Below are positions 47,277-61,104 of a stretch of 64,000 nt of DNA, piece by piece (the stretch's first letter is position 1; every line of letters starts with the position of its first letter). The notes under the pieces are model-generated. The model made no database searches. It saw only the letters and a program-made list of their open reading frames with translations, and had not been told where the DNA came from. The stretch lies in assembly GCA_964016885.1 (NCBI GenBank), contig OZ024747.1, positions 18,352,001 to 18,416,000 of the forward strand, given 5' to 3'. Source of the DNA: Eledone cirrhosa. Lineage: Eukaryota. A program made the translations under genes and the position numbers.

Positions 47277-47502
47277 TATATATATATATATAAATGTGTG
47301 TATGTGTGTGTTCGTGTGTGCATATGTATACGCACATGTATATATACGTATATATGTATATATATGTGAGTATGTATGTCTATATGTATGTATATTTATA
47401 TATGTATACGCGTATATATATATATATCCGGGAGCTTCCAACAGAAATGGTCGTATTCTTTAAGGGTATGTCAATATTTATTTATAAAACTGCTCTATAT
47501 TA

Positions 47503-47567
47503 TATTTTATCTGATGAAAGCACACCATAATTTAACTTGGTGTCCTTGAAATATGTATAATGAAATA
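47503..47567 (+). ncRNA. Minimal type I hammerhead motif (same family as the 60.2 kb element)
   Basis: tattttat-CTGATGA-aag.acacca/tggtgt.ctt-GAAAT-atgt-ATA-atgaaata. Confidence 0.65.
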
Positions 47568-48224
47568 AATATGGTTTTATAAATATAGTTTCCATTTGTT
47601 AATATATCGTGTATTCTGACCTAGGGAGGAAATGGCAATGTCATAGAAGAATGGGATAGTATGCTAAAATTTAAGTGAAAATGAAAATGAAAATGAAAAT
47701 GAAATGTTTTATTACAGAACTGAGTGTGGGTATGTATTGAAAGGGTAAATAAAACAAAATAGTACCTACTTTTATGATGGTCATATTTTGGAGCTTCATA
47801 ACTTTATATCTATGTAGTCTTCTGAAAGTGACAGTCCTTTCTTAGTGTTAAAATGAATTATAAGTTAACAAACTCTTTCTAAAACAATTTTCGTTTCAAT
47901 TAATATGTTCTTGGAATCAACAACTGTTTTGGAAAATGGTATAAGAGTTCTGTGGCCAAATAAGTTTGAGAGCTACAGGGAATTGATGCTGCATAAATTT
48001 TCAAGTTTTCAGCTTGATTTGGTTCAGCTTTCATGTAGTGTAACCACTGCAGTAGTAAATACAACTTGCAACTTTTTCTACCCGCACCCTCTCTCCCTCT
48101 CTCTCTATATATATATATCATGGATAATAGGCCTCGCATACCAGGACTGAACAGAGTCTGATTTACCACCTTGGGTCTTGTTTCCCTCATGGACTCAATT
48201 CCCTCTCCAATTTCTTTAATATTA

Positions 48225-53172: not shown

Positions 53173-53281
53173 ATGGCGAGTGGAGGTTCGGCAGGAATTC
53201 CACCTAATTTCAAACCTATCCAACATTATTTAAAGATTTCCGATGAACATAGTAACAGGGATCAAGTAGTTTCATATTACT
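53173..53281 (+). CDS. VTA1: Vacuolar protein sorting-associated protein VTA1 homolog, exon 1
   Basis: MASGGSAGIPPNFKPIQHYLKISDEHSNRDQVVSYYC|gtaaga; N-terminal MIT1 region. Confidence 0.93.
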
Positions 53282-57382: not shown

Positions 57383-57477
57383 GTCAGCTGTATGCCTTTC
57401 AAAAAGCAATGGGAATTGATAAGAAGTCTCCAGATTGTAGGGACTATTTGATGACACTAATGGACTCTCTAGAAATG
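57383..57477 (+). CDS. VTA1: VTA1 exon 2
   Basis: acag|CQLYAFQKAMGIDKKSPDCRDYLMTLMDSLEM|gtatgt; 95 nt. Confidence 0.93.
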
Positions 57478-57914
57478 GTATGTGCTGTTTGTTTATTTAC
57501 TAGAGTGTCAGATATGTGGCTAATTTTGGGAATATACTTTTGCCACTAGCTGGCCTAAGTGGTTAGGGTGTTGGACTCACAATGATATGGTTGTGTGTAC
57601 AATTTCCAGTTCAAGTAGCATGTTGTGTTCTTGAACAAGACACATTTCACATGGCTTTTTGTGGTATGTTCCCTCTTCTATCATTAAAACATTCAAGAAA
57701 CTTCTTATGAGATGCAACCTAAAATAAGATTAGATAAACAAAGCTCCCATTTGGATACTTGCTATGATTTATGTTATCAATAAAAAAAAGCATCAGATAA
57801 ACGCCATTGCAGTATTTGTTTTGGCTCTTTACATTTGGCGTTCAAATCCTATTGAGGTCGAAAAAATTAAAGTACTATTCAAGTACTGGGGCTGATGTAT
57901 ATATATATATATAT

Positions 57915-58740
57915 AATTATTTAATGTATAATATTATTTAATGTATAATATTATTTAATGTATAATAAACAATACAATATAATTACATCATTACCAAAGG
58001 TTTCCCGAATGAGACGAATACAAGAAACGTCCGCATTCATTCGTCAGACAAGGCAATTTAAAACATAGTGAAATATTTGAAAAATCTCCTCAAGAAAGGC
58101 TAAAAGTTTAACAGGCAAAAAATAAATAAAAGTAATAATACAAGAAATATAGTAAGGGGCTGTGTGTATATGCACATGTGTATGTTTATACGAATGCGTC
58201 CTTTCATCCTTGTATGTGTATATATTTCAGCCCTTAGTCACTAAGTCTATGTATGCTAACTCCATTATCTTACAATTTCTATTTTCAACATATATATATG
58301 TATTTGTGGTCACACATACACTAATATGTTTGCCCTCATGTATGTACTTATGCACACTTTTTTTCACTATACACATGCATTTGTACATACACACACATGT
58401 ACATATGTATGTGCATATACACACATTTAGACACATCCCCTTACTATATATTATTTTTATTTTTTATACATTTCTTGTATTATTACTTTTATTTATTTTT
58501 TGCCCGTTAAACTTTTAGCCTTTCTTGAGGAGATTTTTCAAATATTTCACTATGTTTTAAATTGCCTTGTCTGACGAACGAATGCAGACGTTTCTTGTAT
58601 TCGTCTTATTCGGGAAACCTTTGGTAATGAGGTAATTATATTGTATTGTTTATTATACATTAAATATTTAGCTTTGTAACTTACATAGAGCACTCTTCAT
58701 TCCTCTGACTTTTTTAATTTTCAACGGAAACTTCAATACT
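57915..58740. mobile_element. Inverted-repeat element (about 215-235-bp arms, about 265-bp CA/TG-rich spacer) with a hammerhead in each arm, flanked by (TA)n
   Basis: Arms at about 57952-58165 and 58431-58666 are near-perfect reverse complements. Confidence 0.8.
58560..58637 (+). ncRNA. Minimal type I hammerhead ribozyme motif (sense to VTA1 intron 2); inverted copy at 57981-58058
   Basis: Stem I aattgccttgt/atgaggtaatt (11 bp with wobbles); CTGACGA at 58571; stem II cgaat..agacg/cgtct..attcg; GAAAC at 58614; stem III ACC-ttt-GGT; triplet GTA. Confidence 0.72.
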
Positions 58741-59389
58741 ATATATATATATATATTTCTGTATATATGTATCTTGTTTTTTAGAATAGGTATACTATAT
58801 AGCTGCATACCATAAGCAGTGCCAAAAACGGGCTGACATCAGGAAGGACATCCAGCTGTAAAACATTGTCTCAAATCATCCCAGCCAACCCATGCCATAT
58901 ATTTTTAAACATGGTCATAAAAGTGATGATGATTAATTTGGTATTTAATTCAATGAGAATATTTTTGGCATTGCAAAGGATATGGAAAAACAGAGACTAC
59001 ACAGTAGAAATTATACTAACAGATTGTTTAAATGATGATGATGATGATTTTTTTTCTTGTGTGAAATTATCTTCCAATTTGTAATTTACTTAAGCAGAAT
59101 ATTTAGTTAGTAGAAATAACAATAACAGACTAACTGAACTATAGTAATTACAAATTACAAGTAAATGACAAAGGCTCTGTACTCAACTTGCTTGAAGTAG
59201 CAGCCAAATCTTCCTCAAATCATGTAGTCCTAGAGAAACTATTTTTGGTAAAAAAATGGATGGCCATAGCTTTGATCATAATGCTGTTCAGTTGTGGCTG
59301 GTCTGGGGTTAAACAATTACAAAACTTTATCAATTATAGTAATTAGATTTGTCATTTTACTTTCTGAGTTCAAATCCTAATGGAGGAGG

Positions 59390-59598
59390 ACAACTTTGCC
59401 AGTATTATTCAGAGGTCAACTTTACCAGTAATATTCAGAGGTCAACTTTACCAGTAATATTCAGAGGTCAACTTTACCACTATTATTCAGAGGTCAACGT
59501 TACCATTAATATTCAGAGGTCAACTTTACCAGTAATATTCAGAGGTCAACTTTGCCAGTAATATTCAGAGGTCAATTTTGCCATTATTATTCAGAGGT
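59390..59598 (+). repeat. 26-bp minisatellite, about 8 copies
   Basis: TATTCAGAGGTCAACTTTACCAGTAA repeated with period 26 (59406, 59432 ... 59588). Confidence 0.95.
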
Positions 59599-59876
59599 CT
59601 GTTCTAATCTATTATTGAAGACATTTCCAGAATAATCATCTGGTCTTGTTTTCAGATACAGGGCTTTTTGGAATACATTATCCAATGTTTCCTTTCTTTA
59701 AGACAATAGAGTGTGATTCATGGGAAATTTAGTTGTGATGCTCTAATCAGCATTTTCTTTTGTTGTTTTTATCAATACAAAGAAAAATATTTTACATTTT
59801 TTTTTCTCTTTTATGTTTCCTTTCACATTAATCCATGTATTTTAAATGTTTTACCTTTGTGTCTTGATACAACTAG

Positions 59877-60004
59877 CTGAAACAGCAATTAGTTGATAAT
59901 GATGCCATCAAGTCCGAAACAGTTGGGCAAGCATATTTGGAGGACTATGCTCTCAAGTTTTTCATTGTGGCTGACAACAAAGACAGAGCTGCTCAGTTTG
60001 ATAA
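59877..60004 (+). CDS. VTA1: VTA1 exon 3 (gene continues beyond the window)
   Basis: ctag|LKQQLVDNDAIKSETVGQAYLEDYALKFFIVADNKDRAAQFDK|gtatgt; 128 nt. Confidence 0.93.
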
Positions 60005-60059: not shown

Positions 60060-60452
60060 ATATTATTCAAAATGTTAACAAATGAAAAATATTCTCATAA
60101 TCAAAATATATATTTTATTATACATATTTAAAAGGTACAATGGTGTTTAAGTACATTTTCATCAGACAAAATATAAGATTTGATATGCGACATACCGCTA
60201 CGGTTTTGATTATTCAATTCCAGTATTGGCACATATCAAATCATATATTTTGTCTGATGAAAACGTACTTAAACATCATTGTACCTTTGAAATATGTATA
60301 ATAAAATATATATTTTGATTATGAGAATATTTTTCATTTGTTAACATTTTGAATAATATTAAAAACTCCAGGAAAATAGTCTGTCGAGTGCTTCTAATCT
60401 ATTGTAATTTTGTATTCGTTGAGTAATCAATGAACTATACTAATCTTTGGTT
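60060..60452. mobile_element. Fold-back element (about 128-bp arms, about 44-nt spacer) with an inverted hammerhead pair, flanked by (TA)n
   Basis: Arms at 60060-60187 and 60232-60359; the right arm extends about 90 bp further to the second (TA)n tract. Confidence 0.8.
60243..60311 (+). ncRNA. Minimal type I hammerhead ribozyme motif (sense to VTA1 intron 3)
   Basis: atatattttgt-CTGATGA(60254)-aaa.gtac/gtac.ttt-GAAAT(60289)-atgt-ATA-ataaaatatat. Confidence 0.72.
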
Positions 60453-60656
60453 ATATATATATATACATATGAAGGGCATCCAACTGTAGAAAACCTGCCA
60501 GACAGTCCTATGCGAGCAAGACAATCACTCTTGCCTCAAGTGGGACTACCCCCGTCGAAACCCATGCAAGCGTGGAACACGGACGTTAAACGTTGATGAT
60601 GATGATGATATATCATCATCATCATCATCGTTTAATGTCCATCTTCCACGCTTATG

Positions 60657-61104
60657 AAGGCGCATAGCTTAGTGGTTAGAGCATTGGGCTTGCAATCGAA
60701 AGGTTGTGAATTCAATTCTCGGACCGTGTGATGTGTTGTTTCCTTGAGCAAGACACTTTATTTCACATTGCTCCAGTTTACTCAGCTGTAGAAATGAGAT
60801 GATAGGACTGGGGTCCCTATCATTCCACTGCAAAGTGGTTGTGGAGGTGCCACGGCAAAAAAAGCACCCAGCCCACACTGTAAAGTAGACGTGTAGGAAC
60901 CACGGAAAAAAGACACCCAGCACTCACTGTAAATGAGGTTGGTGTTAGGAAGGGCATCCAGCTGTAGAAATCAAGCCAGAATCAGTTCCTGTATGAGCAA
61001 GACAAGGTCAGCTGACCGGACACTGCCCACAACAGGACAACCCGTCTACCCATGCTAGCGTGGAAGAACGGACGTAAAACGGTGGTGGTGATGATGATGA
61101 TGAT
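60657..61104 (+). mobile_element. Second tRNA-derived SINE family with an RTE-type 3' end and (GAT)n tail
   Basis: GCTTAGTGG A box, GTTCAATTC-type B box, CCTTGAGCAAGACACTT core, AGGAAGGGCATCCAGCTGTAGAAA, CCCATGCTAGCGTGGAA..(GAT)n; near-identical minus copies at 11137-11481 and 32868-33211. Confidence 0.85.

What the first reader, a model, noticed from the sequence alone, without database searches (positions are those of the whole stretch)
57915..58740. Long inverted repeat in VTA1 intron 2 with an intact hammerhead core in both arms
Seen: arms of about 215-235 bp, highly similar. The plus arm has an 11-bp stem I, CUGACGA, a two-part stem II, GAAAC, a 3-bp stem III and a GUA triplet. The minus arm keeps the same core, and its stem II variants (gaatg/cattc, gacg/cgtc) still pair. 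Inference: in VTA1 pre-mRNA the antisense arm is transcribed first and could sequester the sense ribozyme in a long duplex, silencing self-cleavage while creating an ADAR substrate.
Basis: partly seen in the sequence, partly recalled or inferred. Interest (0 to 1): 0.75.

Follow-up and report, generated by a model that had tools for sequence, protein, structure and literature searches.

The report
Head-to-head Penelope retrotransposon ends in intron
The inverted repeat in this VTA1 intron is two truncated ends of an abundant Penelope-type jumping gene inserted back to back; each end carries the family's hammerhead ribozyme motif, which is predicted to be locked in the long hairpin and likely does nothing for the host gene, so it is an ordinary insertion rather than a new RNA switch.

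Summary
Observation confirmed: 200-nt arms, 97% complementary, lie in VTA1 intron 2, each with a type I hammerhead core (cut predicted after 58626). The arms are not a host device. They are the 3' terminal repeat of a Hydra-clade Penelope-like retrotransposon: 2,088 candidate copies; near-full-length copies carry RT/endonuclease with Hydra motifs; (TA)n targets; a tail on one arm only. This architecture is published. Head-to-head geometry puts the antisense arm first in either transcription direction, so the arrangement needs no selection; 18 of 86 sampled core-holding copies have it. Masking is predicted (92 kcal/mol), but the lone ribozyme is probably weak anyway: 3-bp stem III, A-G at the base of stem II, active fold about 0.6%. 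ADAR editing is plausible but untested. By-products: 16 of 16 inverted pairs join one long-tail and one short end, and 21 of 101 copies start at the hammerhead's first base against 0 at the cut, which points to twin priming on an uncut RNA. The scan noted similar insertions and a similar 5' boundary on other DNA.

The parts
57383..57477 (+). VTA1 exon 2 (host)
   Evidence: PF04652 match 57385-57474; spliced contig of X4
57478..59876 (+). VTA1 intron 2, holds the insertion
   Evidence: GT..AG joint, 2399 nt skipped, in a contig of X4; sequence
57898..57915 (.). left part of the (TA)n target
   Evidence: sequence; (TA)n follows the 3' end in 26 of 28 and 28 of 30 other loci
57916..57949 (-). two extra 17-nt copies of the left arm's outer end (slippage or repeated priming; inferred)
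   Evidence: direct repeat D7, spacing 17, 17
57952..58176 (-). inverted, 5'-truncated copy of the element's terminal repeat, short end (no tail)
57981..58058 (-). hammerhead motif of the inverted arm (antisense to VTA1; one stem I pair broken)
58177..58739 (+). direct, 5'-truncated copy of the terminal repeat (pLTR) with tail
   Evidence: 90% identical over 575 nt to the pLTR of near-full-length copy L033
58560..58637 (+). minimal type I hammerhead motif, sense to VTA1; cut predicted after 58626; its first base matches the family's 5' truncation hotspot
58667..58739 (+). 73-nt tail, present on this arm only; in L033 it runs on into the ORF leader
58740..58756 (.). right part of the (TA)n target
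   Evidence: sequence
59877..60004 (+). VTA1 exon 3 (host)
   Evidence: PF04652 match over the cut-off; spliced contig

Best explanation
The repeat is one insertion of a Hydra-clade Penelope-like retrotransposon into a (TA)n tract of VTA1 intron 2, made of two 5'-truncated terminal repeats joined head to head, and its hammerhead is predicted to be locked in the resulting hairpin and likely has no role for the host. Shown: family membership, architecture, target and tail asymmetry. Inferred: the endonuclease nicked both strands of the TA tract; one nick primed reverse transcription at the distal start (long tail), the other at the proximal start (short end); both cDNAs stopped early and were joined at their 3' ends near 58176. 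Predicted: in VTA1 pre-mRNA the arms zip into a duplex of about 200 bp that hides the ribozyme and is a likely ADAR substrate. This is a by-product of the geometry, since the antisense arm comes first on either strand.
For: 2,088 candidate copies, 40 scored, full-length matches 94-100% identical; 299 exact matches to a core pattern, control 0. Copies share a 3' end and differ in 5' extent. Locus L033 shows inverted piece + pLTR with hammerhead + degraded ORF + pLTR with hammerhead. RWK, DKT, CxCX5C, CxxC, CxH and YRDD are in frames of L199 and L031, the Hydra diagnostics of PMC8557442 section 11. Upstream inverted pieces in 9 of 28 and 12 of 30 other loci; 18 of 86 core-holding copies have an inverted partner with a whole core within 450 nt. 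16 of 16 head-to-head pairs within 1 kb join one long and one short end, p = 1.4e-5, matching two RT start sites and two-strand priming in vitro (PMC11167929). Published precedents: inverted 5' copy with one tail (PMC8557442, PMC3846280), hammerheads 100-700 bp apart on opposite strands (PMC4209133), Penelope-13_HM with a hammerhead on each strand. Masking energetics. Exons 2 and 3 are joined normally in X4.
Against: Pfam gave no RT or GIY-YIG match for the six ORF pieces scanned and PDB none for the 417-aa piece, so the protein assignment rests on motifs and on a by-eye comparison with Hydra-1_Obim; no tree was built. No listed contig spans the inner junction or the whole element, so the locus structure rests on the assembly. 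No empty site was seen, and the TA tract hides any target duplication. Twin priming is inferred; PMC3846280 proposes self-priming on an antisense template instead. It is unknown whether the X4 animal carries this insertion.
Confidence: 0.92

Rival explanations
1. The host keeps the pair as a regulated switch: the antisense arm masks an active ribozyme, and ADAR editing or a helicase releases it to cut VTA1 pre-mRNA.
For: Masking is predicted to be complete and co-transcriptional; core bases are intact in both arms; cephalopods edit RNA heavily (established knowledge).
Against: The arrangement is automatic for head-to-head insertions and common in the family. The arm differences look like neutral decay, 3 of 6 at CpG and one breaking stem I. 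The lone motif has an active-fold probability of 0.006, and no second sense copy of this family lies in the window. Editing of core adenosines would tend to destroy the motif (inference).
Confidence: 0.03
2. No switch, but a selective filter: unmasked sense copies cut host pre-mRNA and are purged, so inverted-arm copies are the ones that survive in introns.
For: Both hammerhead insertions in VTA1 introns 2 and 3 are masked pairs; tandem retrozymes are reported as excluded from introns in Xenopus (bioRxiv 2026.07.22.740005, abstract and part 1).
Against: Two cases, against a background rate of about 21% (18 of 86); minimal hammerheads showed no monomer cleavage (PMC4209133) or needed the element's protein (PMC11167929). 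No genome-wide test was possible without gene annotation.
Confidence: 0.1
3. The inversion arose by fold-back self-priming on one template (the proposal of PMC3846280), not by two priming events.
For: Published proposal based on palindromes at inverted junctions; some junctions here hold short fold-back scraps.
Against: Fold-back copying would be expected to give matching outer ends or random ones, whereas 16 of 16 pairs have one long and one short end; a 315-nt unpaired middle separates the arms here.
Confidence: 0.15
4. A MITE or other DNA transposon with 200-bp terminal inverted repeats.
For: Long inverted ends flanked by TA.
Against: Most copies have a single arm, arm length varies per insertion, the middle is more of the same terminal repeat, and the arm continues upstream into an RT/endonuclease frame.
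Confidence: 0.01
5. An assembly artefact that folded one copy back.
For: No listed contig bridges the junction.
Against: The arms differ at 6 of 200 positions and by a deletion, have different outer ends, and follow the family-wide long-plus-short rule.
Confidence: 0.02

Closest known systems
Hydra clade of C-terminal EN+ Penelope-like elements, including Hydra-1_Obim of Octopus bimaculoides and Penelope-13_HM (Craig et al. 2021, PMC8557442; passages, section 11 and supplement part 2 plus search hits read)
   Same: RWK, DKT, CxCX5C, CxxC and CxH motifs; (TA)n target; hammerhead near the 3' end with a 3-4 bp stem III (Penelope-2_HM has the same 3 bp + UUU shape); inverted 5'-truncated copy with a tail at one end; a mismatch at the base of stem II occurs in several listed members.
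   Different: A separate family: the hammerhead sequence differs from Hydra-1_Obim; stem I is 11 bp and stem II is two-part; the mismatch is A-G rather than U-U; the 3' UTR is about 1.4 kb; the tail is 73 nt rather than 30-40.
Minimal type I hammerheads of metazoan PLEs (Cervera and de la Pena 2014, PMC4209133; parts 1-2 of 4 read)
   Same: Weak stem III predicted to work as a dimer; extra base after A9; mostly truncated single copies; pairs 100-700 bp apart on opposite strands already reported in Schistosoma.
   Different: The conserved G10.1-C11.1 pair is absent; stem I is longer; masking of the sense motif inside a host intron was not discussed in the parts read.
Poseidon PAc of Anolis (Frangieh et al. 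2024, PMC11167929; parts 1-2 of 4 read)
   Same: Two RT start sites define the tail; both target strands are cut and extended; unprocessed RNA is the main template.
   Different: Another clade, in vitro data; the long-plus-short pairing rule and a 5' hotspot at the hammerhead's first base were not reported in the parts read.
Inverted Alu pairs in primate introns as ADAR substrates (recalled)
   Same: Near-identical inverted repeat arms a few hundred bases apart in pre-mRNA.
   Different: Here both arms come from one insertion event and include a ribozyme motif; editing is not shown.
Metazoan non-LTR retrozymes (bioRxiv 2026.07.22.740005; abstract and part 1 of 5 read)
   Same: Type I hammerhead related to PLE terminal repeats.
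   Different: No head-to-tail tandem units here; the repeat is attached to its own RT/endonuclease frame.

Membership tests
Penelope-like element, EN+ | Single ORF with RT and C-terminal endonuclease between direct pLTRs | tested here: met
   L033: pLTR - degraded ORF - pLTR; 417-aa open piece in L199 with FYPS, GSFDSA, YRDD, IVY, YVG. No Pfam or PDB match.
Penelope-like element, EN+ | 5' truncation, inverted 5' copy, tail on one end | tested here: met
   the window's copy has a short left end and a tailed right end
Penelope-like element, EN+ | Target-site duplication | tested here: inconclusive
   Both flanks are (TA)n, which hides a duplication; no empty site seen
Hydra clade | RWK and DKT motifs | tested here: met
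   L199
Hydra clade | CxCX5C linker; CxxC and CxH beside the conserved E and N | tested here: met
   L199 and L031
Hydra clade | (TA)n insertion preference and a canonical hammerhead near the 3' end | tested here: met
   26 of 28 and 28 of 30 loci; fold
Hydra clade | Placement in the RT tree | not tested
   Reference proteins were seen only in the paper's supplement and compared by eye
Minimal type I hammerhead | Core CUGANGA, GAAA, NUH with stems I-III | tested here: met
   (core conservation is partly by ascertainment: copies were located by the core)
Minimal type I hammerhead | G10.1-C11.1 base pair | tested here: not met
   A opposite G in 58 and 57 of 58 pieces; several published Hydra motifs also lack it
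Minimal type I hammerhead | Self-cleavage as monomer or dimer | not testable with these tools
   No pile-up of 5' ends at the cut, 0 of 101, is only indirect
Non-LTR retrozyme | Head-to-tail tandem units each with a hammerhead, no ORF | tested here: not met
   One tandem neighbour pair among 147 end matches within 1 kb; ORF linked
ADAR-edited intronic duplex | A-to-I clusters in RNA reads | not testable with these tools
   No run on record as RNA and no raw RNA reads listed

The most novel reading that the evidence does not exclude
Hydra-type Penelope elements insert by twin priming from their two RT start sites on an uncut RNA that begins at the first base of the hammerhead. Every such two-armed insertion puts the antisense arm first on either strand, so the element carries its own antidote, and this lets ribozyme-bearing copies persist in host introns while seeding ADAR substrates across the octopod transcriptome.
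Probability: 0.15. Interest if true: 0.55.

Novelty: new member of a known kind. Interest (0 to 1): 0.2.

Why it matters
For VTA1 it probably does not matter: it is one of thousands of retrotransposon scraps. The family is useful as a record of how Penelope-like elements insert, which the papers read call an open question. The long-plus-short pairing rule and the pile-up of 5' ends at the hammerhead's first base, not at its cut, give testable predictions about priming, the RNA's start and whether the ribozyme cuts. If masked copies were enriched in sense introns, insertion geometry would double as self-silencing.

Tried and rejected
Rfam scans found no hammerhead model. My strict scan missed this motif because of the A-G mismatch. 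Idea that 5' ends pile up at the predicted cut: rejected, 5 of 101 at 58625-58629 (p = 0.30), 0 at 58626-58627. Idea of a copied cap G at the hotspot: not supported, 6 of 23 against 14 of 83 elsewhere. A shared upstream exon at the hotspot (spliced leader): not seen; flanks are (TA)n, inverted partners or unrelated DNA. The stem I edge as a general cause: not replicated in the second family, whose copies mostly start 53-68 nt before the core (19 of 30). ADAR scars fixed in DNA: none among 242 pieces, at most 4 A>G per piece; the sample is biased to well-matching copies. Reads: no RNA holder listed; letter differences in X1-X4 come from paralogues and occur in all runs; no empty allele or bridging contig listed, and the RAD-seq runs gave only partial paralogue reads. 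Pfam and PDB gave nothing for the ORF. In one search the short-end pattern was wrong and matched nothing; one search corrected it. Paper searches listed no paper on masked intronic PLE hammerheads or on a 5' hotspot at stem I; most listings were seen as titles and abstract starts only, and subscription papers are not held.

Full report
Observation. The inverted repeat is real: arms 57952-58151 and 58467-58666, 200 nt, 97% complementary, 315 nt apart, with about 30 more paired bases past a deletion in the left arm. It lies in intron 2 of VTA1. PF04652 matches fall in order at 53218, 57385, 59874 and 63905 (only the third is over the cut-off), and a contig of run X4 joins exon 2 to exon 3 at GT..AG. 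The plus arm folds as a type I hammerhead with an 11-bp stem I, CUGACGA, a two-part stem II, GAAA, a 3-bp stem III and GUA ending at 58626. The minus arm keeps the core. Of the six arm differences three are CpG transitions.

What it is. The arm has 2,088 candidate matches in the 3.0-Gb genome, 40 scored; a core pattern has 299 exact matches against 0 for the control. Copies share the 3' end, differ in 5' extent and are followed by (TA)n in 26 of 28 and 28 of 30 loci (two loci occur in both sets). Long copies run upstream into a coding frame. L033 shows an inverted piece, a terminal repeat with hammerhead and tail, a degraded ORF, and a second terminal repeat. The window's 58177-58745 is 90% identical to that repeat. 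Frames of L199 and L031 hold RWK, DKT, YRDD, CxCX5C, CxxC and CxH, the diagnostics of the Hydra clade (PMC8557442 section 11). By eye the protein resembles Hydra-1_Obim, but the hammerheads differ, so this is another family. Pfam and PDB did not recognise the ORF.

Architecture. An inverted 5'-truncated copy with a tail on one end is the published norm for these elements (PMC8557442 passages; PMC3846280 passages; PMC2377424 passages). Hammerheads 100-700 bp apart on opposite strands were noted in PMC4209133, and Penelope-13_HM is listed with one on each strand. Here 9 of 28 and 12 of 30 loci have an upstream inverted piece, and 18 of 86 core-holding copies have a partner with a whole core. Because both 3' ends point outward, a transcript crossing such an insertion meets the antisense arm first on either strand.

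How it likely formed. I took the exact matches to the two 3' ends: 78 long-tail and 69 short. All 16 head-to-head pairs within 1 kb join one long and one short end (p = 1.4e-5), as the window's copy does. The Anolis element primes at two start sites that define the tail and extends both target strands (PMC11167929). Twin priming at the two sites followed by joining of the cDNA ends is the simplest reading (inferred); fold-back on an antisense template is the published rival.

A side result on the family. 5' ends were mapped for 144 of these 147 matches (76 long, 68 short); 14 near-duplicates were dropped, leaving 130, of which 101 end within 58500-58638. Of these, 21 start at 58558-58562, the first bases of stem I (corrected p about 1e-8 against a uniform spread; both arms of two insertions are counted), 5 at 58625-58629 and none at 58626-58627. 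So integrated templates were mostly uncut and often began at the hammerhead. A transcription start is my preferred reading (an initiator-like YYANWYY lies at 58557-58563; the consensus is recalled), but a cap-derived G was not enriched (6 of 23 against 14 of 83), so an RT stop or a nuclease site remains open. I noted the hotspot before seeing that earlier scan notes describe a similar boundary in shark genomes.

Does the ribozyme act on VTA1? Alone, the plus motif takes the active fold with probability 0.006 and the minus motif 4e-5; with the upstream arm all 14 tested core bases are paired to it at P>=0.997, and the active fold costs 92 kcal/mol. Pairing starts long before the ribozyme is made. 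Masking is thus predicted, but minimal metazoan motifs showed no monomer cleavage and low dimer cleavage (PMC4209133), and the Anolis motif needed protein. No second sense copy of this family lies in the window. The duplex is a likely ADAR substrate by analogy with inverted Alu pairs (recalled); no RNA reads were available, and no hyper-edited copy was found among 242 DNA pieces.

Limits. No listed contig spans the junction, no empty site was seen, and the genome has no relatives here, so age and polymorphism are open. The supplements of PMC4209133 and PMC11167929 were not read, those of the bioRxiv preprint are closed, and only parts of the PMC8557442 supplement were seen; they may hold closer hammerhead variants or 5'-end maps.

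Verdict. Real feature, known kind: a new Hydra-clade family member with textbook head-to-head ends. Interest 0.2, most of it from the family-level footprints.

Noticed in passing
window 60060-60452 (+), VTA1 intron 3: A second head-to-head insertion of a different hammerhead family: arms 60060-60192 and 60227-60359, 95% complementary, short left end, tailed right end, (TA)n on both sides. 1,642 candidate copies; 19 of 30 sampled copies start 53-68 nt before the core and none of the 30 showed shared element sequence further upstream. No ORF was linked, so it may be a short non-autonomous or leader-derived family.
   Followed up: partly
window 47495-47580 (+): A single type I hammerhead motif resembling the intron 3 family, next to a TA tract, upstream of VTA1.
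   Followed up: no
window 57916-57966: The outer 17 nt of the left arm occur three times in tandem before the TA tract; L024 has a similar partial repeat of its end.
   Followed up: no
window 59386-59593: Tandem array of 26-nt units in intron 2, about eight copies.
   Followed up: no
window 60568-60653 and 60665-60720: Two SINE-like ends meeting tail to tail as a 43-bp palindrome, followed by a tRNA-like head (Rfam tRNA 28.2 bits, just under the cut-off).
   Followed up: no
L199 (G000:C2:350711000-350720000) and L200: Near-full-length family copies with tandem and inverted terminal repeats; L199 has a 417-aa open stretch covering RT core, linker and the start of the endonuclease.
   Followed up: partly
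L036 2307-4737: An inverted arm of about 2.4 kb reaching into the ORF, showing that arm length varies from under 100 bp to kilobases.
   Followed up: no
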